Part shown: piece by piece, positions 48,401 through 63,123 of the stretch
How positions within the stretch are numbered: the first letter of the stretch is position 1
Layout: every line of letters starts with the position of its first letter
From: Candidatus Heimdallarchaeum aukensis
GTDB lineage: Archaea > Asgardarchaeota > Heimdallarchaeia > Heimdallarchaeales > Heimdallarchaeaceae
Assembly: GCA_021513695.1 (NCBI GenBank)
Contig: CP084166.1
Span: forward strand, 2,304,001-2,368,000
Direction of reading: 5' to 3'
Length of the DNA stretch: 64,000 bases
Program-made: the position numbers and the translations under genes
Notes under the pieces: model-generated
What the model was told of the DNA's origin: nothing
The model's input: the letters and a program-made list of their open reading frames with translations, nothing else
The model's database searches: none

Positions 48401-49147
48401 GTTACGCTGTTCATTACTCTGACAGATCCAAACGGTGTTGAAGTGGAAAATGAAGCAATAGCTTTAACAGCTCAAGCTGGTACAATTATTTATAGTTACA
48501 CCCTAGATCTGAGTGTTTTTAATTATTCAGTATATGGAGGATATTTATTAGAATATCATTTCTACGTGGAAGATACTATAGGTAATAATATTAGTACGAC
48601 TTCTGTTCAATTAGCTATTAGTAATCCTGCGCCACCCAATCGTCCTCCTGTTGGAGATCCAGCTGATCCAAGTAGTGAGACCCCTATAGGTGGTATTGTT
48701 GGAGGAGCAATTGGTGGTATTGTTGCTCTTATAGTAATTCTTTTCCTATGGTTCAATAGACACTCTCTCCGAAGTTATGCTCAGCAACAAACATTGAGAA
48801 AGAGACTAAGAGACTATCTTCGCGAAATACTAGAAGACATCAAACGTTTGGGTTCAGAAAGCCGTTACAAAGAAGCTGTTCTAAAAACCTGGCAAGTAAT
48901 TGAGGGTGTAGGAAGAGAATTTTTTGATACTCCTAGGTTTAGACATCAAACACCTATGGAGTATGCTACTGTTCTTTCCAGAAGAGGAAAGATAGATATG
49001 GCGATACTCAATACTCTTTCGGAGTATTTTGAAAAAGCAAGATATGGCGCTGAAGTGATAACTGAAACAGACTTCAATGCAACCATATCTGCATTAATGA
49101 AAATAATTAACCAGTTAGAAGCTGGTGAAATGGAAATAGAAACATAA
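45443..49147 (+). CDS. giant (1234 aa) Thr/Ser/Asn-rich surface protein with an N-terminal signal/TM, a C-terminal TM and a cytoplasmic DUF4129-like tail (module 2, position 2)
   Basis: N-terminal hydrophobic segment (IFTVFISLIIFLSSLPVYS). The ectodomain of more than 1000 aa has dozens of N-x-S/T sequons (NLT, NVT, NIT, NTT, NSS...) and no Cys-rich motifs. C-terminal TM (IGGIVGGAIGGIVALIVILFLWF). The tail has HQTPMEY...YFEKARYGAEVITETD, matching the DUF4129-like pattern. It overlaps the upstream gene by 7 nt. Confidence 0.55.
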   Translation: MVRTMKYYNHIKIFTVFISLIIFLSSLPVYSFNYEKLVTKSDLDPTIENNLINYENKNRELNVYSNFKHSSHFTKREKKTPGNYEYYRSPLNIGLYVSIPGTSSLSSDSSRLKLSISSPTEGTKLFRGNTITVSGVLRSAAPNDFWDGETVEIYYNLTEAEFKVDPDSYRSSNYYVTSVVTNSQGEFTATISTSTLSADFRSKVGNITIFTWFDGNPDKGRGSGSPGSSYVFVYGGLKTDVSYSVTNPNQPYSFTTRILFDNNTEVTTSGTQYHIQVTWLTDNRVDINGNFTFTTNSHTYSNTSPSTIQTVKYESYYDSSQLSLNFFVTTGDTSFSNKLLHAVKQATTSEQVVVSSYYVTGTGLTDADIAIPLDSYITVYANVSDSSGLVGAGYNVTLEFYHGTTRYNLTTIQTNSSGAIQTKHFVDHNNIADITINNAFYITMTVSSSEFGGADVTPDSLGSVLESIINSISISISNTTIFYTSGKSISYTVTVTDNFGRVAPLAQFQVDFPGLSVITSSTGSSGTKTLSSVIPSYTIHTQTKTINVTALFTDGGTYRYFLNGTPQNNDTFNIYFDLTLTLQGPYDSNIVDGESTSYFNNTYYSFFQTGNIYNLTVVDEWGRNPVGAPFSLNFEGQTVSGVVTSGNNFIELDPDFNPTTGVDINVPTTISLVAEAGEANYQSSISHTVSIYGPDLDAPVINGETLSPNPFTTASHEPFFNVSFSISVSDVGSGVRSVIIYYQVIESNDSSLLNPANWITLNLTDLGGGIWFGYINTTIDFALQYVHYYIEVKDYAGYGLQENGTRQPTAQYDENFGLTGYLYNETHTNYYQLGDYEPPVEVAVPTTVDSPDPKSPYLNITVYVNDSLIYTGVSQVLIYINRTAVGGTTEINWVNGVQMTNIPGTNAWFYQLLAEYNYQYSWYYVAYDNAEPSPRTFKSQTYTYEAIDDTPPIIYNIDVVPSTGLLWNSTMNFTIRVDDVQNEVENVTLFITLTDPNGVEVENEAIALTAQAGTIIYSYTLDLSVFNYSVYGGYLLEYHFYVEDTIGNNISTTSVQLAISNPAPPNRPPVGDPADPSSETPIGGIVGGAIGGIVALIVILFLWFNRHSLRSYAQQQTLRKRLRDYLREILEDIKRLGSESRYKEAVLKTWQVIEGVGREFFDTPRFRHQTPMEYATVLSRRGKIDMAILNTLSEYFEKARYGAEVITETDFNATISALMKIINQLEAGEMEIET

Positions 49148-49148
49148 G

Positions 49149-49655
49149 GTGAATAAAATGTTCGGATGGGCAAAAAAGAGAAAAAGGTTAAAAAAATTAG
49201 ATCAACTGTTTAATGCTGCTATGGCTGATGTAAGAATATTTGAGCAAAGGCAAGACTATAGAGGAGCAGTTATTGCTTCATTTGGAGGTCTTGCAAGCAT
49301 TGCAGAGAACTTGATAAATCTTACAAGAGCTCCACATCAGACAGGTAGAGAATTTGGCATGCAAGTTGCAGAACAAGCAAACATCTCTACAGAAGTCATG
49401 GATGAGTTTCTTACATCTTTTGAAATAGCTAGATACACAGAAAGAGAAATAGGTTATGATGATTATCAAGAGGCCGTACAACGATTAGATGTTTGCTTTA
49501 GAGGAATACGAGAGCAAGGTATTCAAGAAATAACTGAAGTAACATCTTCAAAGAAAGAAAAGAAACCAAAAGTGAAAACAGCTAAAGCAGCAAAAACTGA
49601 AGTTAAAACTACTAAACAGTTAAAAACTCGAAAACAGTTGAAAACTAGAAGATAA
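49149..49655 (+). CDS. small cytoplasmic DUF4129-like protein with a Lys-rich C-terminal tail (module 2, position 3)
   Basis: HQTGREFG...SFEIARYTEREIGYDDYQEA matches the same TPxE[FY]...ARY...D pattern. The C-terminus is KKEKKPKVKTAKAAKTEVKTTKQLKTRKQLKTRR. It starts 2 nt after the giant gene's stop. Confidence 0.4.
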   Translation: MNKMFGWAKKRKRLKKLDQLFNAAMADVRIFEQRQDYRGAVIASFGGLASIAENLINLTRAPHQTGREFGMQVAEQANISTEVMDEFLTSFEIARYTEREIGYDDYQEAVQRLDVCFRGIREQGIQEITEVTSSKKEKKPKVKTAKAAKTEVKTTKQLKTRKQLKTRR

Positions 49656-49703
49656 TGGTTTGGTTCTAAAAAAAGATAAATGAAAAAAAATGGTGTGTAA
49701 TGT

Positions 49704-51488
49704 ATGTCCGAAAAAGAAAATCAAGAAATAGTGGACGAATATGAACAAGAACTTGTGAAAAAAGAAGATGATTCATCAAAAAAGAAAAAAGTAAAGAAGG
49801 CTAAAGTTAAAAGAAAAAGTAAAAAACCAAAGAAAAAATTCAAACTTAGAAAAGTAAGGTTTACAAAGTATTCTTTAGCTATGACCTTGCTATTTCTCAT
49901 AGTTATCGTTCCACTGTTTATTGGTTTAGTTGGATTAGGTGGAAGAAGTGTAAAATTTTCCATCTACAACACCGGTTGGGATGGTCTTTCCACTGTATAT
50001 AATACATTACAAGCTGAAAACAAATATGAAATATCAAACGGAATGTCAAGTTTAACTATTTTAAATAGATTGAATAGCAGTGGAGTTCTCGTAGTTATCG
50101 GACCAACAACAAGTTACAACTTTGCTGAGACAATTAGTCTCGTAACCTTTCTGGTAAGAGGAGGAAGTTTGATAGTTGCTGACGACTTTGGTTCAGGAAA
50201 TAAAATATTCGAACCGCTTTGGAACGTTATTGCAACCTATGACTCTCTTGTATCTTTAGGACTTGTTCCTTCTTTAACAGATATATTCTTCGGAAATCAA
50301 AGTGCACCATCAAATGTTACATCAGTTGAAGATTTAGCTGGTGCAGCAATTTTTGAGATGCTAGCAGGAATGTTAAAAGCAATAGGTTTTAATCAAACGG
50401 TATTAATGGATGCAGGAAGTAATTATGGTGGAGTAAGTTCTCAACCGTTGTTAAAGGATACAAATCCAGATAACCCCTTAACTGCTGGAATTACAAAGGG
50501 AGTTCAAATGGAATTTGGTACGGTATTAAGTGTTAAAATCAATAACTCTCGATATAATCCATCCACAGGACGTTATGAGTGGTATACAGATTGGGTTCCC
50601 TTGCAGCCTTTGTCTATAAATGTCACAATTGAAGGGGGAGAGTATGGAAATCTTGAGCCAATTTTCATTGAAGATGTGATGTTACCTTTTCTCTCGTTTT
50701 TCACAACTACGACATCGTGGATGGAGTCGAATTTTAGAGATGCACTTACTGGAGAAGCAGTTCCCAATGAAGGAGAATGGGGAAACACTGCCTTTGCCCC
50801 TATTTTGTCAATACCAATAGGTAGGGGAAAAATAGTTATGATTGGAGACCCTGATATATTCATAAATAAATGGATAGAAGATACAGAAAATAATGATAAC
50901 TTGCAATTTTGTCAGAATTTGTTCAATTATGTAACCGAAAATATGGTTGCAAATACAACAAGTGGAAAAATACCTATAATATTTGATGAAGGACATACAC
51001 AATATAAATTCTATAGTCCTGCTCTGGTATCAACCATTTTAATGAGGTTGATTACTGAAATGTCCATGTATCCACTTTATTCACCTTTTGTTCCTATCAT
51101 GTTTGCTGTTATAGCATATCCCCTTATCCCAAAAGCTAGACGATTGGCCCCTGTATTATGGACTAGATACAGAGGAGAAAGAGGAAGGTCACGATTTGAA
51201 CGCGAAATAAAAAGAATATTAGAAACTGGAAGTTACAGTGAAGCAGTAGGTTTACTTTATAGGTCCATGTTACGGGGAGTAAGAAAAGTAGATACCTCTG
51301 CCGCAAGTTCACCTAAATCTTTGGCAGATTTCTTTATTTCAAGGGGATACCCCCTAAAAAGAGGAGCGTTGGTAAGTGAATTCGAGCGAATTGATCGCTA
51401 TTTACAGAGACCAAAGTTGCTCCCACAATCTGAATTTGAAAAAATGTTGCAGTTTATCAAGAATTTAATTGATACTCTGCCTAAATAG
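49704..51488 (+). CDS. DUF4350-like membrane-anchored protein with a Lys-rich N-terminal tail (module 2, position 4)
   Basis: The N-terminus has KKKKVKKAKVKRKSKKPKKKFKLRKVRF, then a TM (LAMTLLFLIVIVPLFIGLVGL), then the ectodomain with LVVIGPTTSYNFAETISLVTFLVRGGSLIVADDFGSG, paralogous to the 36922 product. C-terminal TM (YSPFVPIMFAVIAYPLIP) and a cytoplasmic tail. Confidence 0.45.
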   Translation: MSEKENQEIVDEYEQELVKKEDDSSKKKKVKKAKVKRKSKKPKKKFKLRKVRFTKYSLAMTLLFLIVIVPLFIGLVGLGGRSVKFSIYNTGWDGLSTVYNTLQAENKYEISNGMSSLTILNRLNSSGVLVVIGPTTSYNFAETISLVTFLVRGGSLIVADDFGSGNKIFEPLWNVIATYDSLVSLGLVPSLTDIFFGNQSAPSNVTSVEDLAGAAIFEMLAGMLKAIGFNQTVLMDAGSNYGGVSSQPLLKDTNPDNPLTAGITKGVQMEFGTVLSVKINNSRYNPSTGRYEWYTDWVPLQPLSINVTIEGGEYGNLEPIFIEDVMLPFLSFFTTTTSWMESNFRDALTGEAVPNEGEWGNTAFAPILSIPIGRGKIVMIGDPDIFINKWIEDTENNDNLQFCQNLFNYVTENMVANTTSGKIPIIFDEGHTQYKFYSPALVSTILMRLITEMSMYPLYSPFVPIMFAVIAYPLIPKARRLAPVLWTRYRGERGRSRFEREIKRILETGSYSEAVGLLYRSMLRGVRKVDTSAASSPKSLADFFISRGYPLKRGALVSEFERIDRYLQRPKLLPQSEFEKMLQFIKNLIDTLPK

Positions 51489-51539
51489 AATAATGTTTCA
51501 AAAAATAAAAACAAAAAAAGAAAAGGAAAGTGAAAAAAA

Positions 51540-52541
51540 ATGAGTGAAGAAGAAAAACCGGCAAAACCGGCTAAAGGAAAAGCACAAACCGAAGCAGTGG
51601 TAACTCCAAAAGATATCAAGAGAGTTTGGTCTGAGATCTATGCTGAATTAAAACGTGTAATTATAGGTAAACTAGACGTACTGGAAGATCTCTTTATTGC
51701 TCTTCTAGCAAGAGGACATGTGCTGCTTGAAGGTGTACCTGGTGTTGCAAAAACCGTCATGGCTAAAAATTTTGCTGCTACCCTTGGAGCTGAATTCAAA
51801 AGAGGACAATTTACCCCAGATTTACTTCCAAGTGACGTTGTAGGTACTACAATATATGATCCTAAAGCAGGAACATTCAAAATGAGAAAAGGACCTATAT
51901 TTACAAACATCTTCTTGGCTGACGAAATTAACAGAAGTCCTCCAAAAACCCAAGCTGCATTACTTGAAGCAATGGCTGAAAAACAAGTCACAGTGGAAGG
52001 AACTACATTCAAGCTTGAGCCACCTTTTTTGGTAATTGCAACTCAAAACCCTGTAGAACAAGAGGGAACTTACCCATTACCAGAAGCACAAGTAGATCGT
52101 TTTATGTTTAAACTGATAGTTGACCTACCTTCGCCAGAAGAAGAAATAGAGATAATTGATCTTTCACACAAGCATGCTTTTCGCACAGTTCGCAGAATAA
52201 CTACTCCTATGACCATCATCAGAATGATAGAAACTGTGGAGAAAAGAATCTATGTACATGAAGATATTATGGCTTATATCAGAGATATTACTGTCGCAAC
52301 TCGTACTGATCCACGATTATTACTTGGTGGTTCTCCAAGATGTAGTATCGCGCTGTTAAATGCTTCAAAAGCTGTAGCTGCAATGAACGGTAGAGATTAC
52401 GTAATTCCTGATGATGTTAAACGAATAGCAAAAATAGGCGCAGCTCATCGATTGCAGATGAAACCGGAAGCAGAATTGGAAGGTACCACTGGAAGTATGG
52501 TTATGGACGACATCTTGCGCAATTTACCAGTACCAGTATAA
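51540..52541 (+). CDS. MoxR-family AAA+ ATPase (module 2)
   Basis: Walker A (GVPGVAKT), Walker B (FLADEINRSPPKTQAALLEAM). 333 aa. Clear paralog of the 38217 gene. Confidence 0.9.
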   Translation: MSEEEKPAKPAKGKAQTEAVVTPKDIKRVWSEIYAELKRVIIGKLDVLEDLFIALLARGHVLLEGVPGVAKTVMAKNFAATLGAEFKRGQFTPDLLPSDVVGTTIYDPKAGTFKMRKGPIFTNIFLADEINRSPPKTQAALLEAMAEKQVTVEGTTFKLEPPFLVIATQNPVEQEGTYPLPEAQVDRFMFKLIVDLPSPEEEIEIIDLSHKHAFRTVRRITTPMTIIRMIETVEKRIYVHEDIMAYIRDITVATRTDPRLLLGGSPRCSIALLNASKAVAAMNGRDYVIPDDVKRIAKIGAAHRLQMKPEAELEGTTGSMVMDDILRNLPVPV

Positions 52542-52551
52542 AGTTAATTAG

Positions 52552-54000
52552 GTGATTACAATCTTTACACGAAGAGGAGGATACCTGATATTCTTTGGTA
52601 TTGTAATGATTAGCGTAGGCTTTGCACTTGCAGGTTTCCTAGCTCTAAATAATATACTTGAATCATTTGGAGCACATCCAGTGCCTGAAACATCAACAGA
52701 AGGCCCTCAAGGAACAGGTTTAATGGATCTTTTACATTTCTACCTTTTAGATTCGACTCTAATATGGTATTTCATCATTTTAGGTGTTATGCTAATATTT
52801 TCCGTTATGCTTGGTTTACCTTTCTATAGACTCGGTGCAAACCCTGAATCTATAGAAATAAAAAGAAAAGTAGCTAAAGCAAAAGCTTTTGCAGGAGATT
52901 ATGTGTATATAGAAGTGACAGTAAGAAACAGATCTGTAAACCAGCTTCCCCACGTAGAAATTTACGATGCAATTCCAGAAGTCTTTGACTTAGTGTTAGG
53001 CGAAAATTTCATTATTACACAGCTGAATCCAAAGGAAACAGTTACATTTGGATATGTAGTTCGGATACCAATTAGAGGATTGTTCAATATTGGACCAACT
53101 AAAGTTATAATCAAAGATAGAATGGGATTCTACGCTACAGAAGGAGAAATTAAAACAAAGACGGAGATATTAGTTTATCCAAGCTATGAAGATATTAGAA
53201 AAATGGAAATGATAGGCAAAAAACGTCGTCTAGGTGTAATTTTTGGAATGCATAGAACTAAAGTTAAAGGAATGGGAGACGATTTCGCTGGAATTAGACA
53301 GTATCAAACAGGAGATCCATTTAAATTTATTGACTGGAAAAGCGTTGCACGTTCTGGGAAAATGATGGTTCGTGAATTCGAAGCAGAGCAAAATATTCGA
53401 GTAATTATCATGATCGATGCCTCTGCAAGTATGGGTGCTGGGCTACCTAGAAACACTAAGTTAGAATATGCTATTCGAAGTGCAGTGTTACTAATGCATC
53501 TTGCTTTCGAAAAACACGATATGGTTGGTTTGTGTGTTTATGATGATGAAGTTAGAACATGGATTGATCTAACCAGTTCTAGAAATAGACTCTTTGCGTT
53601 TTTGGAGGCTTTAGCCTTAGTAAAACCAAAAGGGGAATCAGATCTAGAAAAAGCTATGGATTATGCAATAAAGAGAGTACGAAGAGCATCCTATATAGTT
53701 ATTTTGTCTGATTTAGAGTCTAATCCACAAAAAATAGTTTCAGCAATTAGGCAAGCGCGGGGACGGAAACACCAAGTAACAGTTATAAGTCCATTTGGAC
53801 CTTGGTTTGAGATTGTATCTCAGCAATTGAGCCCCATAGAGCAACTAATTGGTTATGCTATGGTTGAAAAACAGATGGGTGAAAGATATAGAATGTTTAA
53901 GGCTATAAGAAAATTCGATGCTACCACTGTTAATGTTGGACCAGATGATTTCTTACCTACAATTATGGCTCAGTTCAGAAGGATACAAAGGAGGGGATGA
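52552..54000 (+). CDS. DUF58 protein (vWA-like, MoxR partner; module 2)
   Basis: FIDWKSVARSGKMMVREFEAEQN followed by VIIMIDASASM (DxSxS MIDAS-like). N-terminal TM helices. It is 10 nt downstream of the MoxR gene. Confidence 0.8.
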   Translation: MITIFTRRGGYLIFFGIVMISVGFALAGFLALNNILESFGAHPVPETSTEGPQGTGLMDLLHFYLLDSTLIWYFIILGVMLIFSVMLGLPFYRLGANPESIEIKRKVAKAKAFAGDYVYIEVTVRNRSVNQLPHVEIYDAIPEVFDLVLGENFIITQLNPKETVTFGYVVRIPIRGLFNIGPTKVIIKDRMGFYATEGEIKTKTEILVYPSYEDIRKMEMIGKKRRLGVIFGMHRTKVKGMGDDFAGIRQYQTGDPFKFIDWKSVARSGKMMVREFEAEQNIRVIIMIDASASMGAGLPRNTKLEYAIRSAVLLMHLAFEKHDMVGLCVYDDEVRTWIDLTSSRNRLFAFLEALALVKPKGESDLEKAMDYAIKRVRRASYIVILSDLESNPQKIVSAIRQARGRKHQVTVISPFGPWFEIVSQQLSPIEQLIGYAMVEKQMGERYRMFKAIRKFDATTVNVGPDDFLPTIMAQFRRIQRRG

Positions 54001-54003
54001 AAA

Positions 54004-55515
54004 ATGGAATCATTATCAGAAACAAGAATGATTGATCTTGGAATTAGAGGAGTAGAACGAAGGCTTAAAGGGGCAAGAACACAGACTATTATTACCAACG
54101 TAATTTCTAGATTAATTGCTATAGGTGTTATATTATGGCTATTTCTTCAATTATGGACTAATATTGATAAAACAAAATTACCTCCTGGCCATTTAATTGA
54201 TTCACTTACTATCTTCTTTCTCTATTTTGAGAATTTTGCGGTATTATTCTTTCTTATACCAATATTCTTGATATCTTTAATTTTCGGAGCAATGGGTAGT
54301 GGCGCAGATGGGAGCGCTATATTACTTACGGCAAGAGCATTTTTTACTGTAGACATTTTCAATAATGTTTCTCCTCCAGAACCGATGACTTCATCTGAAC
54401 TTTATGGAAGTGAAAGCACAAACATGTTTTCAGTCTTTACCAGTGCTTTTGGTTATCTGTGGCGAAATCGTATTTACTTCAAAGATACTAATCGAGCAAC
54501 AATTCTCATTTTAGCTGTAATTATTTTCTGGTTAGGTGTAACTGCCTTTCTGATGAGGTCTGATATGAGGACAGCAGCAACCGTCTTTGCTTCTTCTCAA
54601 TTCATTGTACTATATGCTCAAACCCAATTGTTATTTAAAAATCAGTTATATTATGCTCCAACAGAAAATATAGTTGTGCTCTTTTCTTATGATGCAGTAA
54701 TTACAGCTTTAGCATCATATCTGTTCCTAGAGATAGCGTTGCAAACATCTTATATCTCTAAAATACTTAATCCAACGCAAGATAGACAAAAAAGAGTTTT
54801 ACAAGCTCTTGATAGACTAAAAGAATTTAGATTAGGAATAACCCCTGTAACAACAGAAGTGAGTAAACCTGAAACTGAGGAGACTAAAAAGGAAGCCTCA
54901 AAAACAATTGCAGGAGCAGGAAGCAGTTTGGTCAAAAAGTACGGTGCTACAGCAGTGGCGTTTTTAGCAGAAAAAACTAAAGATTCGCTTTTTGCTAAAC
55001 CTGGAGGACGACAAGCTAAATTGACAGGGAGACTGCAACGATATCATGATAGTTTGGTGCATAGTGATACAGAGGTTGATCAAAAACTAGTAGGGGCATC
55101 AGTAGCTGTCTCACCAATGATGACGATAGTATATATTACCATTTCAATAATCTTTAGATTAATAATAATGATGCTCGGACTATTTTTAGTCTTAAATCCT
55201 GATATTCTGTTATTCATTCTTCGTTATCCTCCTTCAATTTATTATAGTCTAGAAATGTTAGAACCAGAAGGAGTAGTTCTACTTTTAATACCAATAGTAG
55301 TAATGATATTATTGTTAACAGAGCTAATAGGTTATATACAGAAGAGATTAGCTGAAAGAATAACCCAAGAAAAAACAGAAGAAGAATTAATGGAAGAAAT
55401 TCAATATGAAGAAGAAGAGGGCACAGGAGTAGTAACAGAAGGACCGATAAGTGATATATCAGAAGAAGAATTATTCTATAAACAATTAGAAGAAGAATTC
55501 TCTGATGAAGAATAA
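54004..55515 (+). CDS. hypothetical polytopic membrane protein with a strongly acidic C-terminal tail (module 2 terminal gene)
   Basis: About eight hydrophobic helices. The C-terminus is EEELMEEIQYEEEEGTGVVTEGPISDISEEELFYKQLEEEFSDEE. It starts 3 nt after the DUF58 stop. Confidence 0.4.
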   Translation: MESLSETRMIDLGIRGVERRLKGARTQTIITNVISRLIAIGVILWLFLQLWTNIDKTKLPPGHLIDSLTIFFLYFENFAVLFFLIPIFLISLIFGAMGSGADGSAILLTARAFFTVDIFNNVSPPEPMTSSELYGSESTNMFSVFTSAFGYLWRNRIYFKDTNRATILILAVIIFWLGVTAFLMRSDMRTAATVFASSQFIVLYAQTQLLFKNQLYYAPTENIVVLFSYDAVITALASYLFLEIALQTSYISKILNPTQDRQKRVLQALDRLKEFRLGITPVTTEVSKPETEETKKEASKTIAGAGSSLVKKYGATAVAFLAEKTKDSLFAKPGGRQAKLTGRLQRYHDSLVHSDTEVDQKLVGASVAVSPMMTIVYITISIIFRLIIMMLGLFLVLNPDILLFILRYPPSIYYSLEMLEPEGVVLLLIPIVVMILLLTELIGYIQKRLAERITQEKTEEELMEEIQYEEEEGTGVVTEGPISDISEEELFYKQLEEEFSDEE

Positions 55516-57880: not shown

Positions 57881-58126
57881 AATTTTTCACCATTATTTAA
57901 CACTAGTACTGAGCATCATGTACTAATTGCTTTTCATTAAGTTGTGCGAACTTTCAAAATTTGAATTATAAAGTTAATGATTATATAGTTCTTTCCTTTA
58001 GTATACTAGAGGGCATCAATATTTAAACGTTCAAATTATGTTTCTCCTCTTATAAATCAAGAATTGATTTTTATTATTTTTCTTCCTTAACAATAAGAGT
58101 TAAGAATCTTTTTTTTATTTTAACTT

Positions 58127-59281
58127 GTGCAGACTCTATATGCTCCTAAAGCTCTAATTGGTGAAAATTTAGAACTAAAAAATCATGTTCTAATCACTAT
58201 CTCTGAGGATGGTATTATTCATTCTTTAGACACTGAAGTAGATGATTATTCTGCAGATACAGTTTTGTCTCAAGACACTTTAGTTCTTCCCAGTTTTATT
58301 AATATGCATACTCATATTGGTGATTTTTTACTCAAAGATCAAGGTTTTGGATTATCTTTAAGAGAAGTTGTTGGAAGAAATGGAGTTAAACACTCCTTTC
58401 TCAATAAACTGAGTGATGAAAGACTACAATTTTCCTTAGAACACGCTCTCTCTCTTCTTATTTCAAATGGTTATTCTACCTTTGTAGACTTTAGAGAAGG
58501 GGGAATTAAAGGTGTTTCAATGCTCGGGAAAGTTTTAGAATCTTTTCTTATTCGAGGAATTGTTCTTGGTCGTCCTTCAGCTGATGATGATATAGATAGT
58601 TTAGTTGAATATGTGGATGGTTTTGGGTTCTCTGATGTTTTTTCAGTATATGAAAAAGAAGAATTAATTGAAAACTTAGAAAAAGCTCTTTCTTCGAATT
58701 CTGAACTTTTGTTATCAATTCATGTTGCTGAAACAAAGGAATTAGTGGAAAAGTCTATAGCGGAAATAGGAAAAACAGACTTAAATTACGTAATAGAAAA
58801 TCTCTCACCTTCTTTTATTGTTCATTGCAATTATGTTACAGAGGACAATCAATTTCTTAAAATTAAAGAATGTGGAATAGGTGTTGTTTGTTGTCCTTTG
58901 ACAGCGTCATATTTTGGTCTTCAGTTTCCACCGATTGTTAAATGCTTGGAATATAATATTCCTCTCGCCTTGGGAACAGATAACATAATGATTGCTGATG
59001 TTAATCCTTTTTTCCTTATGCGTTTTACTCTACTAACTCTATCATCTAAAGGAGTTTTTCTGTCTCCTCAAACTATTTTAAAAACACTAACCGTTAACCC
59101 AGGGTTAATGCTTAATCAGAAAATAGGTCAAATTTTTCCAGGTTATAAAGCTGATTTCATAGGCGTAAACCTATCATCACCCAATCTTATCCATTCAAAT
59201 GATGTCTATAAAACTCTAGTTTTTAGAACTTCAGTTAAAGATATAAACTTCCAAATGTTTGAAGGGAGAAGAATAAAATGA
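58127..59281 (+). CDS. metal-dependent amidohydrolase, deaminase-type (cytosine/guanine-deaminase / MtaD-SsnA-like subgroup)
   Basis: HxH metal motif (NMHTHIGD), HxxE (SIHVAETKE), a later His (HCNYV) and the GTD Asp motif (LALGTDN). The 3' end overlaps the start of the downstream reductase gene by ATGA. Confidence 0.55.
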   Translation: MQTLYAPKALIGENLELKNHVLITISEDGIIHSLDTEVDDYSADTVLSQDTLVLPSFINMHTHIGDFLLKDQGFGLSLREVVGRNGVKHSFLNKLSDERLQFSLEHALSLLISNGYSTFVDFREGGIKGVSMLGKVLESFLIRGIVLGRPSADDDIDSLVEYVDGFGFSDVFSVYEKEELIENLEKALSSNSELLLSIHVAETKELVEKSIAEIGKTDLNYVIENLSPSFIVHCNYVTEDNQFLKIKECGIGVVCCPLTASYFGLQFPPIVKCLEYNIPLALGTDNIMIADVNPFFLMRFTLLTLSSKGVFLSPQTILKTLTVNPGLMLNQKIGQIFPGYKADFIGVNLSSPNLIHSNDVYKTLVFRTSVKDINFQMFEGRRIK

Positions 59282-59970
59282 ATAAGGAGCTTTTAAAACC
59301 TAAAGTAACAATTAATGTTGCTTGTTCGCTCGATGGGATAATAGCTACAAATAAAGGTCCTTTGGATCTATCTAATGAAGAAGATTGGTTACGTGTTCAT
59401 GATTTAAGAAATAATTCTGATGCCATTTTAGTAGGTATAAACACAATAATTAATGATAACCCTGGGCTGAAGATTAAAAGAGTTGATTTAACTCCTCCGC
59501 ATCCCTACAGAGTTGTTCTTGATAGCAATGCTAGAATACCTTTAGATGCTAAAGTTTTAAGAGAACAAGAAGTTTTTCCTACTATCTTATTTGTATCTAA
59601 TATCACTGAATCAAAATTTCTTGAACTTAAAGAAAAAGGAGTATCAGTTGAAGTTGTAAAAGAAATAGAAAAAGGTTTTCTAGATCTTGAGATGGTACTA
59701 GACATCCTATACAGAAAATATAATGTTAGAAATCTGATGGTTGAAGGTGGAGGAAAAATAATTACCAGTTTTGTAATCCATAAACTTGTCGACGAAATGA
59801 TTATTTTTTATGCACCAATTTTAGTAGGTTCTATAGATGGAGTTCCACTATTTCCAAAAAAAGCAAAAGAAAAAATATTAGAGCATGATAGAATTAAAAA
59901 TATCATTCACGAAAGAATAGGAGATGGCTTTCTCATCAAAATTCAGTATGGAGAAAACAAATGTCAATAG
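59278..59970 (+). CDS. RibD-C-terminal-domain reductase (archaeal 2,5-diamino-6-ribosylamino-4(3H)-pyrimidinone 5'-phosphate reductase, ArfC/MjaRED-like)
   Basis: DHFR-like fold motifs: VACSLDGIIA, ILVGINTIINDNPGL, MVEGGGKIITSFV. About 230 aa. It lies directly upstream of cofG/cofH. Confidence 0.65.
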   Translation: MNKELLKPKVTINVACSLDGIIATNKGPLDLSNEEDWLRVHDLRNNSDAILVGINTIINDNPGLKIKRVDLTPPHPYRVVLDSNARIPLDAKVLREQEVFPTILFVSNITESKFLELKEKGVSVEVVKEIEKGFLDLEMVLDILYRKYNVRNLMVEGGGKIITSFVIHKLVDEMIIFYAPILVGSIDGVPLFPKKAKEKILEHDRIKNIIHERIGDGFLIKIQYGENKCQ

Positions 59971-61019
59971 AAGAATATCTCAACTTTATAGAAAATGAAC
60001 AGTGTGATCTTCTTGTTAAAGCAAATGAAATAAGGTCTAAAAATTATTCAAATCAAGTAACTTTTTCAAGAAATTACTTTGTTCCTGTAACTCGACAGTG
60101 TAGAAACAATTGTAGATACTGCAGTTTTTCAAATTCAGATGTCTCAAGTTGGGTGAATCTCTCACAGTTTCAACTACACCTTGAAACAGCTAAAAAAAAC
60201 AATTGTTTAGAACTTTTACTAACAATGGGCGAAAAGCCAGAAGAGCGCTACGAAAGCGCTAGAAATTTTCTCGAATCTAATAATTTTAGTTCTTCTGCTG
60301 AGTATGTTGCTCGCTTGTGTGAATTAGCAATAGAAAGAAAACTTCTTCCTCATTCAAATTTAGGAGTATTAAACTACGAAGAATTATCCTTGTTAAAACC
60401 AGTTAATGCAAGTATGGGTCTTATGTTGGAAAGTTCAAGTACTCGATTATTACAGAAAGATATGCCTCATTTCAACTCTGTTGGAAAAGATCCTGAAAAA
60501 CGATTAAAAACTATTGAAAATGCAGGTAAATTGAAGATACCTTTTACTACTGGCATTCTTGTTGGTATTGGAGAAACATGGGAAGAACGTGTTCAGAGTC
60601 TTCTAGATATCGCCTACTTAAGCAAAAAATATGACCATATCCAAGAAGTAATAGTTCAAAACTTTAATCCTCAAAGTAACACATTAATGAAGAATCATCC
60701 TCCTCCAACTGAAGAAGACTTTTTACTAACTGTCGCTTTAGCACGACTTATACTCCCTTCACATGTTAGTATTCAAGTTCCACCAAATCTAAATAAACAG
60801 AGAATAGTGAAAGCTTTAACCTACGGTGCTAATGACTTAGGAGGAATGTCTCCTGTAACATCAGATTATATTAACCCTGATGAACCTTGGCCCAACGAAT
60901 ATGAACTTAACCAATACTTAAAACAAGAAAATTTTACTCTAATTCAAAGACTCCCTGTATACGCACGATACATCAAGTATTTAAGTAGTGAGTTGAAAAA
61001 CATCATTAATCAATTGTAA
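59961..61019 (+). CDS. cofG: 7,8-didemethyl-8-hydroxy-5-deazariboflavin (FO) synthase subunit CofG (radical SAM)
   Basis: The radical-SAM motif CRNNCRYCSF lies within NYFVPVTRQCRNNCRYC, the characteristic CofG context. About 350 aa. Confidence 0.8.
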   Translation: MSIEEYLNFIENEQCDLLVKANEIRSKNYSNQVTFSRNYFVPVTRQCRNNCRYCSFSNSDVSSWVNLSQFQLHLETAKKNNCLELLLTMGEKPEERYESARNFLESNNFSSSAEYVARLCELAIERKLLPHSNLGVLNYEELSLLKPVNASMGLMLESSSTRLLQKDMPHFNSVGKDPEKRLKTIENAGKLKIPFTTGILVGIGETWEERVQSLLDIAYLSKKYDHIQEVIVQNFNPQSNTLMKNHPPPTEEDFLLTVALARLILPSHVSIQVPPNLNKQRIVKALTYGANDLGGMSPVTSDYINPDEPWPNEYELNQYLKQENFTLIQRLPVYARYIKYLSSELKNIINQL

Positions 61020-61025
61020 GGAGAA

Positions 61026-62153
61026 TTGATAAAAATAAAACTGACTCCCAAGGTTGATACTTTTTTAACATTAGAAGAAATTATTTCCAAATCTTCAGCT
61101 GAAATAGAATATGTTTACTCCCTTCTTAAAAAAAGAGGAAAAAATCTTTTTAATCTAATAAAAGAAGCAGATGAAATACGCTTTAAATTAGTTGGAGATA
61201 AAGTGAGTTTTGTTGTTAATTACAACATAAACTTCACAAATTACTGTGTTGGTTCATGTAAATTTTGTTCGTTCAAAAATAGTAACAACTCGCTAATAAA
61301 AGGATACAGAATGGATACTGATAAATTCAAAGAATCAGTAGAAGATGCTATTAAGAAAGGAGTAAGTGAAATTTGTATCCAAGGGGGGTTGGATCCTACT
61401 TTTACGTATGAGAATTATTTAGAACTAATAAAAATCATACGAAGAATTTCTCCTACTGTCCATATTCATGCATTTTCACCTTCTGAAATAGCGTATATGT
61501 CACACATTAGTGAAGAAAATGTTGAAGATGTATTTAGAGAGTTAAAGTCTAAAGGACTGAATTCATTTCCTGGTACTGCAGCAGAAATATTAAATGATGA
61601 GGTTAGAAAAGTTATTTGCCCAGAAAAAATAACAACACAAGAATGGATAGACATTGTTATTACAGGGCATAACCTCGGAATACATTCCTCTTCAACTATG
61701 ATGTATGGTCACATAGAATCTTTACTAGATGAAGCAAAACACTTGGTTATCCTAAAGAAAATTCAAGAAGAAACAGGAATGTTTACAGAGTTTGTACCAT
61801 TGCCTTTTATTCATCATTATACTCTACTCTACAATAAATACGGTGCCCAACCAGGAAGTACGGGATTACATGACTTAACTATATTTAGTTCAGCAAGAGT
61901 ATATTTTGATAGTAGTATTCCTAATATTCAAGTATCTTGGCCTAAACTTGGCCTAAAATTTGCTCAATTTTCCTTGTATGCTGGTGTCAATGATTTAGGG
62001 GGAACACTTTTCCATGAGAATATTTCTAAAAGTGCTGGAGCAAGATACGGAGAATTCACATCTGTTGATGATTTTGTTAGAATAATCGCAGATGCTGGAA
62101 GAATTCCTGTTCAAAGAAATACGATATATAAGGAAATACTATCTTATGAGTAA
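61026..62153 (+). CDS. cofH: FO synthase subunit CofH (radical SAM)
   Basis: The radical-SAM motif CVGSCKFCSF lies within VNYNINFTNYCVGSCKFC, the characteristic CofH context. About 375 aa, immediately after cofG. Confidence 0.8.
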   Translation: MIKIKLTPKVDTFLTLEEIISKSSAEIEYVYSLLKKRGKNLFNLIKEADEIRFKLVGDKVSFVVNYNINFTNYCVGSCKFCSFKNSNNSLIKGYRMDTDKFKESVEDAIKKGVSEICIQGGLDPTFTYENYLELIKIIRRISPTVHIHAFSPSEIAYMSHISEENVEDVFRELKSKGLNSFPGTAAEILNDEVRKVICPEKITTQEWIDIVITGHNLGIHSSSTMMYGHIESLLDEAKHLVILKKIQEETGMFTEFVPLPFIHHYTLLYNKYGAQPGSTGLHDLTIFSSARVYFDSSIPNIQVSWPKLGLKFAQFSLYAGVNDLGGTLFHENISKSAGARYGEFTSVDDFVRIIADAGRIPVQRNTIYKEILSYE

Positions 62154-62262: not shown

Positions 62263-63123
62263 ATGTCACCTAGCAAAACAAAAGAGCCTATAAATATATT
62301 TAAAGCGCTTTCTAATCCAATTAGAAGAAACCTAGTTAGTTTTATAGGTGACAAAACAAGATATGGCGATTCTGTTTCTTTTACTCAAATTCAACAAGAA
62401 TTTAATATGAAAGTAGGAACTCTATACCACCATCTTGACTCATTAGGGGACTTGATTACACAAGATGAGAAGAAAAAGTATTTACTTACTCCCAAAGGAG
62501 TTCAAGCTTATAATTTAATAGAAGATAAGATCGATGCATTTGCAAAGGAAATGCCCACATTTGGACCTTTTTCTTTTTTACATAGAGTTTTTTTACGTAA
62601 TTACTTCGAAAAAATTCAGTCTGATCCCTTACGCTTTTTAGGTATTTCACTATTTATTTTTTCTGGGTTGGTGACTGGTTCGTATTTCTTATCTTATGGG
62701 CCAATCTTCATATTTCCCACTTTAATAAGTCCACAATTCTTAACCCCTGTTCTATTTGTTCTATCGGCATTAGTTATTTATTTACTCATAGAGCTTTTTA
62801 CTTCTCTTTTTTTTAGGAAAACAACAGACAAACTAGCCTTATTTCAAGCTGTTCTCTATTCTCAAATCCCTTTGTTTATCTTTTCAATTATTGAGTATTT
62901 TGTTATGGATGTAGACTACTCTGTTTCACCTTTAGACATCTCTATTTGGCTTTTCTTGCTCTTAATTTTCATTCAGCTATTATTCTTAGGAGTAATTATT
63001 GAAGCACTGATTGTTATTAAAGGATTAAGAATGGAGAAAGCAGGTTTGATAGCACTATTGGTAATCTATTTGCTTAATCTTTTCTCATTTTTATTATTAA
63101 GGGGGTTGGTGGTGAGCATATGA
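62263..63123 (+). CDS. membrane-anchored winged-helix (ArsR-like) transcriptional regulator
   Basis: N-terminal wHTH (FKALSNPIRRNLVSFIGDK...VSFTQIQQEFNMKVGTLYHHLDSL), followed by about five TM helices. Confidence 0.5.
   Translation: MSPSKTKEPINIFKALSNPIRRNLVSFIGDKTRYGDSVSFTQIQQEFNMKVGTLYHHLDSLGDLITQDEKKKYLLTPKGVQAYNLIEDKIDAFAKEMPTFGPFSFLHRVFLRNYFEKIQSDPLRFLGISLFIFSGLVTGSYFLSYGPIFIFPTLISPQFLTPVLFVLSALVIYLLIELFTSLFFRKTTDKLALFQAVLYSQIPLFIFSIIEYFVMDVDYSVSPLDISIWLFLLLIFIQLLFLGVIIEALIVIKGLRMEKAGLIALLVIYLLNLFSFLLLRGLVVSI

What the first reader, a model, noticed from the sequence alone, without database searches (positions are those of the whole stretch)
58127..59970. Deaminase-type amidohydrolase translationally coupled to the pyrimidine reductase upstream of cofG/cofH
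The archaeal riboflavin and F420 route reduces 2,5-diamino-6-ribosylamino-pyrimidinone phosphate with a RibD-C-type reductase and then deaminates it. As far as I know, the deaminase for this step has been an open question in archaea.

Here a metal-dependent amidohydrolase sits directly upstream of the reductase gene, overlaps it by ATGA, and is followed by cofG and cofH. The amidohydrolase has HxH, HxxE and GTD motifs typical of the nucleobase-deaminase subgroup. This four-gene arrangement makes it a candidate for the missing pyrimidine deaminase feeding FO synthesis.
Basis: inference. Interest (0 to 1): 0.55.

Follow-up and report, generated by a model that had tools for sequence, protein, structure and literature searches.

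The report
Predicted archaeal riboflavin/F420 pyrimidine deaminase
This Heimdall-group archaeon has a metal-dependent deaminase-type gene joined to the riboflavin/F420 pyrimidine reductase and the two FO-synthase genes, and it belongs to the same family (MJ0699, "PyrD") that was proposed years ago, but never tested, as the missing archaeal pyrimidine deaminase.

Summary
A 384-aa amidohydrolase (58127-59281) overlaps by ATGA a stand-alone RibD_C/ArfC reductase (59278-59970), followed by cofG and cofH.

- **Not a known deaminase type.** It is not MtaD, SsnA, guanine or cytosine deaminase. Its only strong model hit is NCBIfam NF005552/PRK07213 (240 bits; next best 74).
- **Active site.** A confident AF2 model (pLDDT 96) is a COG0402-type deaminase barrel. 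The full catalytic set (H61, H63, H199, E202, H233, D285) is near-invariant in 291 relatives.
- **Gene context.** Relatives sit directly upstream of arfC in Heimdall, Loki, Hel, Bathyarchaeota and Thaumarchaeota. They lie inside full rib or rib+cof operons, including one with arfA, ribB, ribC, ribH, cofG and cofH.
- **Prior prediction.** I traced the family to MJ0699 (Q58110; 31% identical over the full length; 589 bits to the same model). A Methanocaldococcus lauensis member is labelled "Pyrimidine deaminase archaeal predicted". This is the "PyrD" candidate of Osterman/Rodionov (2010, 2017), which a 2021 paper still lists as untested.

What is new is modest: the Asgard members, a recurrent AH-arfC-cofG-cofH module, and a Heimdall-specific R258L/E297L swap.

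The parts
57881..58126 (.). AT-rich divergent intergenic region between aEF-2 (minus strand) and the amidohydrolase gene; presumed promoter region of the operon
   Evidence: It is nearly identical in the close relative L001 and only patchily conserved in L029. No convincing conserved palindrome or operator was found.
58127..59281 (+). Amidohydrolase-superfamily deaminase-type enzyme, a Heimdall-clade member of the MJ0699/'PyrD'/PRK07213 family. Predicted 2,5-diamino-6-ribitylamino-4(3H)-pyrimidinone 5'-phosphate C2-deaminase.
   Evidence: - PF01979, 1.7e-23.
- NF005552, 240 bits; next model 74 bits.
- 31% identity to MJ0699 over the full length, E 6e-45.
- AF2 pLDDT 96. Foldseek top hits are COG0402 deaminases.
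- Catalytic residues H61, H63, H199, E202, H233 and D285 are near-invariant in 291 relatives.
59278..59281 (+). ATGA stop/start overlap between the amidohydrolase and arfC (translational coupling)
   Evidence: Read directly. Overlapping AH/arfC ORFs (4-23 nt) are also seen in L029, L031, L035, L036, L038, L045 and L004.
59278..59970 (+). Stand-alone RibD_C-type pyrimidine nucleotide reductase (ArfC/Rib7-like), with no fused CDA-type deaminase domain
   Evidence: PF01872, 3.3e-43. TIGR01508 scores 162 bits (cut-off 186) and TIGR00227 scores 153 bits (cut-off 150). At 230 aa it has only the single domain.
59961..61019 (+). cofG, FO synthase radical-SAM subunit; overlaps arfC by 10 nt
   Evidence: NF004884, 426 bits (cut-off 209); TIGR03550, 403 bits.
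61026..62153 (+). cofH, FO synthase subunit (5-amino-6-ribitylaminouracil:tyrosine 4-hydroxyphenyl transferase)
   Evidence: TIGR03551, 446 bits (cut-off 374); PF19288 CofH_C.
62263..63123 (+). Conserved downstream gene: N-terminal ArsR-like HTH plus a membrane domain (286 aa). Whether it belongs to the operon or its regulation is uncertain.
   Evidence: Weak HTH_20, DUF7347 and SdpR/ArsR hits. It occupies the same position after cofH in L001, L029/L030 and L045.

Best explanation
The 384-aa protein is a mononuclear-metal amidohydrolase-superfamily deaminase of the archaeal MJ0699 ('PyrD', NCBIfam PRK07213) family. Its most likely job is the pyrimidine deamination step shared by archaeal riboflavin and F420 synthesis.

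**Proposed pathway in this operon**
1. ArfC, encoded by the next, translationally coupled gene, reduces 2,5-diamino-6-ribosylamino-4(3H)-pyrimidinone 5'-phosphate to the ribitylamino form.
2. The amidohydrolase hydrolyses the C2 amino group of this 2-amino-4-oxopyrimidine. The product is 5-amino-6-ribitylamino-2,4(1H,3H)-pyrimidinedione 5'-phosphate plus ammonia.
3. After dephosphorylation by an unidentified phosphatase, CofH and CofG, encoded by the next two genes, condense that pyrimidine with tyrosine to make FO.

**Proposed chemistry**
- A metal-bound water or hydroxide is held by H61 and H63 (strand 1), H199 (strand 5) and D285 (strand 8).
- It attacks C2, with H233 and E202 of the HxxE motif shuttling protons.
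- This is the same chemistry as in guanine, isocytosine and cytosine deaminases.

**Shown:** fold, complete catalytic residue set, family membership, and conserved operon linkage with arfC and rib/cof genes.

**Inferred:** substrate identity, the order of steps (taken from the published M. jannaschii pathway), metal identity, and the roles of the family-specific invariant residues (D66, K88, D121-F-R123-E124, N286, R367) in binding the 5-amino, ribityl and phosphate parts.
For: **1. Fold and active site**
- The AF2 model has pLDDT 96 and pTM 0.94.
- Foldseek PDB hits are all COG0402-type deaminases or hydrolases at 15-22% identity and query-normalised TM-score 0.8-0.88: MTA/adenosine deaminases, HutF, AtzA/TrzN, TM0936, isocytosine deaminase Vcz and guanine deaminase.
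- H61, H63, H199, E202, H233 and D285 are conserved in 289-291 of 291 family sequences.

**2. Distinct family**
- NF005552 scores 240 bits. The next model scores 74, MtaD 35, SsnA 41, guanine deaminase 40 and CodA 16.
- No solved structure scores above 42 bits by sequence.

**3. Gene context**
- AH-arfC-cofG-cofH occurs in the window, L001, L029/L030 and L045 (Heimdall) and in L036 (Bathyarchaeota).
- AH-arfC occurs in Loki (L031).
- ribB, ribC and ribH followed by AH-arfC occurs in Hel/Asgard (L035, L038).
- ribE-ribB-ribH-arfA-AH-arfC occurs in nine Nitrosopumilales loci.
- arfA-cofG-ECH-cofH-AH-HAD occurs in Methanomethylicia.
- cofG-cofH-DUF2769-ribB-ribC-ribH-arfA-AH-arfC occurs in L043, with a creatininase-family gene nearby.
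- In these clusters the AH is the only recurrent gene without an assigned pathway step. The deaminase and the phosphatase are the only steps without a gene.

**4. Reductase partners** are all stand-alone proteins of 216-237 aa with no CDA-type deaminase domain.

**5. Match to the published candidate**
- MJ0699 (Q58110) is a family member: 589 bits to NF005552, and 31% identity with E 6e-45 to the window protein.
- M. lauensis members carry the source name 'Pyrimidine deaminase archaeal predicted'.
- PMC5397151 and PMC8305020 describe PyrD/MJ0699/HVO_2483 as the candidate.

**6. Chemistry fits.** The substrate's 2-amino-4-oxopyrimidine ring is the moiety deaminated by guanine and isocytosine deaminases, which are among the structural neighbours (established enzymology).
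Against: - No enzymatic or genetic test of any family member was found. Everything here is guilt by association plus fold.
- The window protein scores below the curated cut-off of its best model (240 against 294 bits).
- Its Heimdall clade has replaced three otherwise near-invariant residues: R258L, N260A/S and E297L. These lie just after strand 7 and in the helix that follows strand 8, which by general barrel topology is the active-site face. Some shift in substrate handling cannot be excluded.
- In Methanococcales, including MJ0699 itself, and in two other loci (L002, L003), the gene is not next to rib genes.
- I could not check whole genomes for anticorrelation with CDA-type RibD/RIB2 deaminases.
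- The window carries no other rib genes.
Confidence: 0.75

Rival explanations
1. It is an ordinary nucleoside or nucleobase salvage deaminase (MTA/SAH/5'-deoxyadenosine deaminase MtaD/DadD, guanine, 8-oxoguanine, isocytosine or cytosine deaminase, or SsnA-like). On this view its position next to arfC has no functional meaning.
For: It has the same fold and the same HxH/HxxE/H/D catalytic set as those enzymes. Public annotations call relatives 'cytosine deaminase' or 'cytosine/adenosine deaminase-related hydrolase'. The radical-SAM enzymes CofG and CofH produce 5'-deoxyadenosine, so a DadD-type enzyme next to them would not be absurd (inference).
Against: - Scores to all those curated models are 5-20 times below their cut-offs and far below the PRK07213 score.
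- The family forms its own clade.
- It has its own invariant residues that E. coli GuaD, SsnA and CodA lack: N59, D66 (where GuaD has Gln), R123-E124 and N286.
- The adjacency is to arfC, often with overlapping ORFs, and it persists in operons that have no cofG/cofH, such as Thaumarchaeota, Loki and Hel.
- M. jannaschii already has a separate characterised DadD, MJ1541 (from my own knowledge; not checked here).
Confidence: 0.05
2. It is the formamide hydrolase of the pathway, a non-orthologous replacement of ArfB. It would remove the formyl group from the GTP cyclohydrolase III product rather than deaminate.
For: - The amidohydrolase superfamily includes amide and imine hydrolases. HutF (formiminoglutamate deiminase) is among the structural neighbours.
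- ArfB orthologues are reported missing in many archaea, and only a candidate exists in haloarchaea.
- The gene sits next to arfA in Thaumarchaeota, Methanomethylicia and L043.
Against: - M. jannaschii has both the biochemically characterised ArfB (cited in PMC5397151) and MJ0699.
- L043 carries a creatininase-family gene (ArfB's family) near the AH, although that gene scores only 35 bits to the ArfB model.
- The tightest and most widespread coupling is to arfC, the step just before deamination, not to arfA.
- The HxxE-type single-metal site is the deaminase signature of this subgroup (established knowledge of amidohydrolase subtype III).
Confidence: 0.07
3. It acts in flavin/deazaflavin metabolism but not on the textbook substrate. 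It might deaminate the ribosyl intermediate before reduction (bacterial order). It might act on the dephosphorylated pyrimidine destined for CofH. It might serve as a damage-control or recycling hydrolase for reactive aminopyrimidine intermediates. The Heimdall clade in particular could have shifted specificity.
For: - The Heimdall clade has lost the R258/E297 pair and N260.
- That clade is always linked to cofG/cofH rather than to ribB/ribH.
- CofH uses the dephosphorylated pyrimidine (PMC8498797).
- Substrate form cannot be read from sequence.
Against: - R258 and E297 change together to Leu/Leu: 263 R/E against 14 L/L among 291 sequences. That pattern looks like a structural salt bridge swapped for a hydrophobic pair, not a changed ligand contact.
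- All other family-specific invariants are retained: D66, K88, R123, E124, N286 and R367.
- The Bathyarchaeota protein has the same four-gene context and the canonical residues.
- Reduction before deamination is the published order in M. jannaschii (Graupner 2002, cited).
Confidence: 0.12

Closest known systems
MJ0699 / HVO_2483 family: 'PyrD', SEED role 'Pyrimidine deaminase archaeal predicted' (NCBIfam NF005552 / PRK07213 'chlorohydrolase')
   Same: - Same family. The best and only strong model hit is NF005552.
- 31% identity to MJ0699 over the full length (E 6e-45).
- Same signature residues.
- Same kind of genomic association with rib genes that led to the original prediction.
   Different: - It is a divergent Asgard (Heimdall) branch that scores below the curated cut-off (240 against 294).
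- It carries the R258L/E297L/N260A changes.
- It is linked to cofG/cofH rather than to ribB/ribH.
- The family itself has no experimentally shown function.
RibD N-terminal domain (bacteria) and Rib2 deaminase (fungi): the known pyrimidine deaminases of riboflavin synthesis
   Same: Proposed to catalyse the same kind of C2 deamination of the diaminopyrimidinone intermediate. Like fungal Rib2, it would act after the reductase, on the ribitylamino form (PMC5397151; PMC13151069).
   Different: The fold is unrelated. RibD-N and Rib2 are cytidine-deaminase-fold zinc enzymes. This protein is a (beta/alpha)8 amidohydrolase with HxH/H/H/D ligands and no CDA-domain hit. If confirmed, it is a non-orthologous displacement.
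Guanine deaminase, isocytosine deaminase (Vcz) and 8-oxoguanine deaminase (amidohydrolase superfamily, COG0402 group)
   Same: Same fold and catalytic residues. These enzymes deaminate the same 2-amino-4-oxopyrimidine moiety (established enzymology).
   Different: - Only 13-20% identity.
- Curated models score 40-42 bits against cut-offs of 375-532.
- The Gln that follows HxH in E. coli GuaD is an invariant Asp (D66) here.
- This family adds the DFRE and GTDN motifs.
- The proposed substrate is a ribityl-phosphate-substituted monocyclic pyrimidine.
TM0936 / MtaD / DadD (MTA, SAH and 5'-deoxyadenosine deaminases)
   Same: TM0936 is the closest solved structure by sequence (42 bits, E 7e-10) and a good structural match (query-normalised TM-score 0.83).
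   Different: It is not an orthologue. The MtaD model scores 35 against a cut-off of 779, and the DadD model 53 against 522. Gene context and signature residues also differ.

Membership tests
MJ0699 / 'PyrD' predicted archaeal pyrimidine deaminase (NCBIfam NF005552, PRK07213) | Scores above the curated cut-off (294 bits) of NF005552 | tested here: not met
   The score is 240.3 bits. It is still the top hit by a factor of three over the next model, aligned end to end (residues 3-377 on model positions 3-376 of 382). Other Heimdall and Loki members also fall below the cut-off (240 and 223). Thaumarchaeota, Bathyarchaeota, Hel, Methanomethylicia and MJ0699 pass it (302-589).
MJ0699 / 'PyrD' predicted archaeal pyrimidine deaminase (NCBIfam NF005552, PRK07213) | Full-length homology to MJ0699 (Q58110) | tested here: met
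   BLASTP gives 31% identity and 52% positives over residues 4-379 against 6-377, E 6e-45. MJ0699 was identified by accession.
MJ0699 / 'PyrD' predicted archaeal pyrimidine deaminase (NCBIfam NF005552, PRK07213) | Family signature residues: N-x-H-x-H-x-G-D, K88, D-F-R-E, H-x-x-E, H233, C-P-R-x-N, G-T-D-N, F-x-E-M, R367 | tested here: inconclusive
   All are present except R258 (Leu), N260 (Ala) and E297 (Leu). These are changed in the whole Heimdall clade (14 of 291 sequences) and in no other clade sampled.
MJ0699 / 'PyrD' predicted archaeal pyrimidine deaminase (NCBIfam NF005552, PRK07213) | Chromosomal clustering with riboflavin/F420 biosynthesis genes (the basis of the published prediction) | tested here: met
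   In the window it overlaps arfC and precedes cofG and cofH. The pattern is conserved in relatives from five archaeal lineages.
MJ0699 / 'PyrD' predicted archaeal pyrimidine deaminase (NCBIfam NF005552, PRK07213) | Deaminates 2,5-diamino-6-ribitylamino-4(3H)-pyrimidinone 5'-phosphate | not testable with these tools
   This needs an enzyme assay or genetics. No published test was found for any member.
Amidohydrolase superfamily, single-metal deaminase subgroup (COG0402: cytosine/guanine/MTA deaminase-like) | (beta/alpha)8 barrel with HxH (strand 1), His (strand 5) in an HxxE motif, His (strand 6) and Asp (strand 8) | tested here: met
   - PF01979.
- AF2 pLDDT 96.
- Foldseek E down to 2e-27 against members of this subgroup.
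- H61, H63, H199, E202, H233 and D285 are conserved.
MtaD / DadD (MTA, SAH and 5'-deoxyadenosine deaminase) | Passes the curated equivalog models NF012037 (cut-off 779) or NF005557 (cut-off 522) | tested here: not met
   34.8 and 52.8 bits.
Guanine deaminase / SsnA / cytosine deaminase CodA | Passes TIGR02967 (cut-off 375), NF005540 (cut-off 444) or NF005759 (cut-off 403); clusters with the E. coli enzymes | tested here: not met
   39.8, 40.7 and 15.7 bits. The archaeal family forms a separate clade from E. coli GuaD, SsnA and CodA in an NJ tree without bootstrap.
RibD-N / Rib2 cytidine-deaminase-fold pyrimidine deaminase | CDA-fold zinc deaminase domain (dCMP_cyt_deam) | tested here: not met
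   Neither the amidohydrolase nor the 230-aa RibD_C protein has such a Pfam or NCBIfam domain. The predicted fold is a TIM barrel.
ArfB (creatininase-fold formamide hydrolase) | Creatininase family PF02633 / NF033501 | tested here: not met
   The window protein has no hit to either. A separate creatininase-family gene exists in the related cluster L043.

The most novel reading that the evidence does not exclude
The most novel reading not excluded concerns the Heimdall-clade enzymes, which carry R258L/E297L/N260A and are always found in an AH-arfC-cofG-cofH module. They could be a functionally shifted branch dedicated to supplying the FO synthase, for example accepting a different form of the pyrimidine (dephospho or ribosyl) than canonical family members. 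On this reading the four-gene module, shared with Bathyarchaeota, would be a self-contained deazaflavin-precursor operon separate from riboflavin supply.
Probability: 0.12. Interest if true: 0.45.

Novelty: new member of a known kind. Interest (0 to 1): 0.3.

Why it matters
The C2 deamination of the diaminopyrimidinone intermediate is one of the last steps of archaeal riboflavin/F420 synthesis without an experimentally assigned enzyme. The other is the phosphatase.

If this family is the enzyme, it is a case of non-orthologous displacement. A TIM-barrel amidohydrolase would be doing in archaea what a cytidine-deaminase-fold enzyme does in bacteria, fungi and plants.

Public annotation would also need correcting. 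It currently reads 'chlorohydrolase', 'cytosine deaminase' or 'amidohydrolase family protein'.

This window adds no new idea. [quoted passage not shown] It also adds strong new cluster evidence, including near-complete rib+cof operons. That evidence makes the long-standing candidate an even safer bet for a simple in vitro test.

Tried and rejected
- **Other rib genes in the window.** tblastn with ArfA, RibB, RibH and RibE from a thaumarchaeal operon found none apart from AH and arfC.
- **RbkR-like operator upstream.** The window and L001 are too closely related to be informative, L029 aligns only patchily, and the inverted repeats found are not shared. I dropped this line.
- **First attempt to reach MJ0699.** I used a 'Methanobacteriota' homologue (L019) as query. 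It led only to marine Thermoplasmatota short forms.
- **Second attempt to reach MJ0699.** I ran an exhaustive profile search and picked candidates by Methanococcales-like amino-acid composition. This gave the Methanotorris igneus protein, and then MJ0699.
- **Published family identity.** The supplement of Rodionova 2017 is not held, and the text of both papers does not name the family. The link therefore had to be made by sequence.
- **PDB sequence search.** No close solved relative was found.
- **Cloacimonadota hits** (L024-L026; 20-27% identity) fall with SsnA and are not family members.
- **Short Thermoplasmatota/DHVE2 proteins** (326-344 aa) keep the catalytic residues but have no rib neighbours. 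I left them out of the context argument.
- **Heimdall residue changes as a sign of lost function.** I rejected this reading as the main one, because R258 and E297 co-vary as a pair and all catalytic residues are intact.
Full report
**What is in the sequence**

The window has about 31-35% G+C. It comes from a Heimdallarchaeaceae archaeon: the protein is 97% identical to an NCBI MAG protein of that name and 78% identical to one in the complete genome of Ca. Heimdallarchaeum endolithica.

At the stated coordinates there are four co-directional ORFs:
- a 384-aa amidohydrolase, 58127-59281, with a GTG start;
- a 230-aa RibD_C protein, 59278-59970;
- cofG, 59961-61019;
- cofH, 61026-62153.

The first two share an ATGA stop/start overlap that can be read directly. 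arfC and cofG overlap by 10 nt. Pfam and NCBIfam confirm the identities. The reductase is a stand-alone RibD_C domain: TIGR00227 scores 153 bits against a cut-off of 150, and the archaeal reductase model TIGR01508 scores 162 against 186. CofG and CofH pass their equivalog cut-offs comfortably.

**Which amidohydrolase it is**

Against NCBIfam, the protein's only strong hit is NF005552 (PRK07213, legacy name 'chlorohydrolase'). It scores 240 bits and aligns end to end. The next model scores 74 bits. The models for MtaD (35), DadD (53), SsnA (41), guanine deaminase (40) and cytosine deaminase (16) are far below their cut-offs.

No solved structure is close by sequence; the best is TM0936 at 42 bits. 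An AlphaFold2 model built on 37 family sequences is very confident, with pLDDT 96 and pTM 0.94. Foldseek against the PDB returns only COG0402-type deaminases and hydrolases at 13-22% identity and query-normalised TM-score about 0.8-0.88. These are MTA/adenosine deaminases, HutF, AtzA/TrzN, TM0936, the isocytosine deaminase Vcz and guanine deaminases.

A rough neighbour-joining tree without bootstrap puts the archaeal family in its own clade, apart from E. coli SsnA, GuaD and CodA.

In an alignment of 291 family sequences the catalytic set is essentially invariant: H61, H63, H199, E202, H233 and D285 are conserved in 289-291 of 291. Family-specific residues are also conserved: D66, K88, D121, R123, E124, C256, N286 and R367. 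It is therefore a bona fide single-metal deaminase-type amidohydrolase, but of a family distinct from all characterised ones.

**Genomic context elsewhere**

- **Heimdall clade.** The four-gene order AH-arfC-cofG-cofH recurs in all four Heimdall-clade loci seen: window/L028, L001, L029/L030 and L045.
- **Bathyarchaeota.** The same order occurs in L036.
- **Lokiarchaeia.** L031 has AH-arfC with overlapping ORFs.
- **Hel/Asgard.** L035 and L038 have ribB, ribC and ribH followed by AH-arfC.
- **Nitrosopumilales.** Nine loci have ribE-ribB-ribH-arfA-AH-arfC, verified by Pfam for L004. These loci are closely related and count as one lineage.
- **Methanomethylicia.** The order is arfA-cofG-ECH-cofH-AH-HAD.
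- **L043.** The closest canonical relative of the Heimdall clade (P0013) lies in a nearly complete pathway cluster: cofG-cofH-DUF2769-ribB-ribC-ribH-arfA-AH-arfC. A creatininase-family gene sits two genes further on, on the other strand.

All partner reductases are 216-237 aa and have no fused CDA-type deaminase domain. Exceptions exist. L002 has a flavin-reductase-like gene downstream of the AH instead of arfC, L003 has no rib neighbours, and MJ0699 itself is not clustered. Across these clusters the AH is the only recurrent gene without an assigned step. The deaminase and the phosphatase are the only steps without a gene.

**Link to the literature**

Rodionova et al. 2017 (PMC5397151) state that orthologues of the RibD deaminase domain are missing in Archaea. 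They say a candidate archaeal pyrimidine deaminase, 'PyrD', was proposed by Osterman, Overbeek and Rodionov (2010) from chromosomal clustering and co-occurrence, and 'remains to be tested'. Pfeiffer and Dyall-Smith 2021 (PMC8305020) identify that candidate as HVO_2483 and MJ0699 (Q58110) and say it 'requires experimental confirmation'. Neither text names the protein family, so I made the link by sequence in four steps:
1. An exhaustive profile search of the family found 2695 cluster representatives at E below 1e-30.
2. One representative, chosen for a Methanococcales-like composition, proved to be the Methanotorris igneus protein.
3. Its homologues include a 90% cluster holding Q58110, 'Uncharacterized protein MJ0699 / atrazine chlorohydrolase isolog'.
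4. A neighbouring cluster holds Methanocaldococcus lauensis proteins named 'Pyrimidine deaminase archaeal predicted'.

MJ0699 scores 589 bits to NF005552 and is 31% identical to the window protein over its whole length, E 6e-45. The window protein is thus a divergent Asgard member of the already-proposed family. Literature searches up to mid-2026, including an April 2026 review of riboflavin biosynthesis (PMC13151069), turned up no experimental test.

**How it most likely works**

The published M. jannaschii route goes GTP, then ArfA, ArfB and ArfC, followed by deamination (cited). On that route ArfC produces 2,5-diamino-6-ribitylamino-4(3H)-pyrimidinone 5'-phosphate. The amidohydrolase would hydrolyse its C2 amino group through a metal-activated water. 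The metal ligands would be H61, H63, H199 and D285, with H233 and E202 as proton shuttles.

The product, 5-amino-6-ribitylaminouracil 5'-phosphate, is dephosphorylated by an unknown enzyme. It is then used by lumazine synthase for riboflavin and by CofH and CofG for FO (PMC8498797).

The target ring, a 2-amino-4-oxopyrimidine, is the same moiety that the structurally related guanine and isocytosine deaminases act on. Fold, residues and linkage are shown. Substrate, order of steps, metal and the roles of D66, K88, R123 and R367 are inferred.

**Rivals**

- **Generic salvage deaminase.** This is disfavoured by the model scores, the separate clade, the private signature residues, and a linkage that follows arfC even where cofG and cofH are absent.
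- **ArfB-type deformylase.** This is disfavoured because M. jannaschii has both ArfB and MJ0699, and because the tightest coupling is to arfC. L043 also carries a creatininase-family gene, but that gene scores only 35 bits to the ArfB model, so the point is weak.
- **A shifted substrate** (ribosyl, dephospho, or damage control). This cannot be excluded from sequence.

**A peculiarity of the Heimdall clade**

All 14 Heimdall-clade sequences replace R258 and E297 with Leu/Leu and N260 with Ala/Ser. R258 and E297 are R/E in 263 of 291 sequences. In the model these positions lie just after strand 7 and in the helix after strand 8. By general barrel topology that is the active-site face.

The strict pairwise change suggests a salt bridge swapped for a hydrophobic contact, not a lost ligand contact. 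I could not measure distances because the model coordinates are not exposed. This swap, together with the sub-threshold model score (240 against 294), is the main reason for residual caution about this particular protein.

**Verdict**

It nevertheless rediscovers a prediction that has been in SEED annotations and in the literature since 2010 and 2017. What is new here is limited:
- the extension to Asgard archaea;
- the recurrent AH-arfC-cofG-cofH module in Heimdall and Bathyarchaeota;
- the near-complete rib+cof cluster L043;
- the Heimdall-specific residue swap;
- a HAD hydrolase next to the gene in Methanomethylicia, as a lead for the missing phosphatase.

Interest is moderate to low (0.3). 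I place it as a new member of a known, predicted and untested kind.

Noticed in passing
L033:7189-7770 (also L034): In Methanomethylicia a 193-aa HAD-superfamily hydrolase lies 10 nt downstream of the amidohydrolase, in an arfA-cofG-ECH-cofH-AH-HAD cluster. HAD enzymes are the known ARPP phosphatases in bacteria and plants, so this is a lead for the other missing archaeal riboflavin/F420 step. It was seen only in this lineage.
   Followed up: partly
L043:318-9221 (also L044): An uncultured archaeon carries a near-complete flavin/deazaflavin cluster: cofG-cofH-DUF2769-ribB-ribC-ribH-arfA-AH-arfC. DUF2284 and a creatininase-family gene lie on the opposite strand. The creatininase-family gene belongs to ArfB's family but scores only 35 bits to the ArfB model. 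DUF2769 and DUF2284 are unexplained passengers.
   Followed up: partly
window 58127-59281, residues 258, 260 and 297: The Heimdall clade (14 of 291 family sequences) replaces the otherwise invariant R258/E297 pair with Leu/Leu and N260 with Ala/Ser. This looks like a co-varying salt bridge swapped for a hydrophobic pair near the active-site face.
   Followed up: partly
window 62263-63123: A 286-aa protein with a weak ArsR/SdpR-like N-terminal HTH and a multi-pass membrane C-terminus sits directly after cofH. It is in the same position in every Heimdall locus examined (L001, L029/L030, L045) and is followed by a protein of about 1020-1066 aa with no Pfam hit. A regulatory or transport role for the operon is possible but untested.
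   Followed up: partly
L002:7203-7775: In a 'Crenarchaeota' MAG the family member is followed by a flavin-reductase-like (PF01613) gene instead of arfC.
   Followed up: no
L012-L022; P0121-P0240: Thermoplasmatota, DHVE2 and marine-group archaea have a short (326-344 aa) subfamily. It keeps all catalytic and most signature residues but lacks the C-terminal segment, including R367. It hits only NF005552 (226-236 bits) and is not next to rib genes. Its neighbours are Usp-like, transporter-like and DNA polymerase small-subunit-like ORFs.
   Followed up: partly
window ~47000-55515 (L028:1-7389): Upstream of aEF-2 lies a DUF4129/DUF4350, MoxR-type AAA+ and DUF58/VWA gene cluster, followed by a 503-aa membrane protein with an acidic tail. 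It is unrelated to the finding.
   Followed up: no
beyond the window's 3' end (L028:18621-21155; by offset, window position 66747 onward): A large DEAD/ResIII helicase with Cas3-like C-terminal and MZB domains lies downstream of the operon, after a 1066-aa protein with no Pfam hit that starts inside the window at about 63120.
   Followed up: no
NCBIfam NF005552; P0534 (MJ0699): Public names for this family are legacy or generic labels: 'chlorohydrolase', 'atrazine chlorohydrolase isolog', 'cytosine deaminase' and 'amidohydrolase family protein'. Among the proteins whose source names I saw, only the two Methanocaldococcus lauensis members carry the predicted role.
   Followed up: yes
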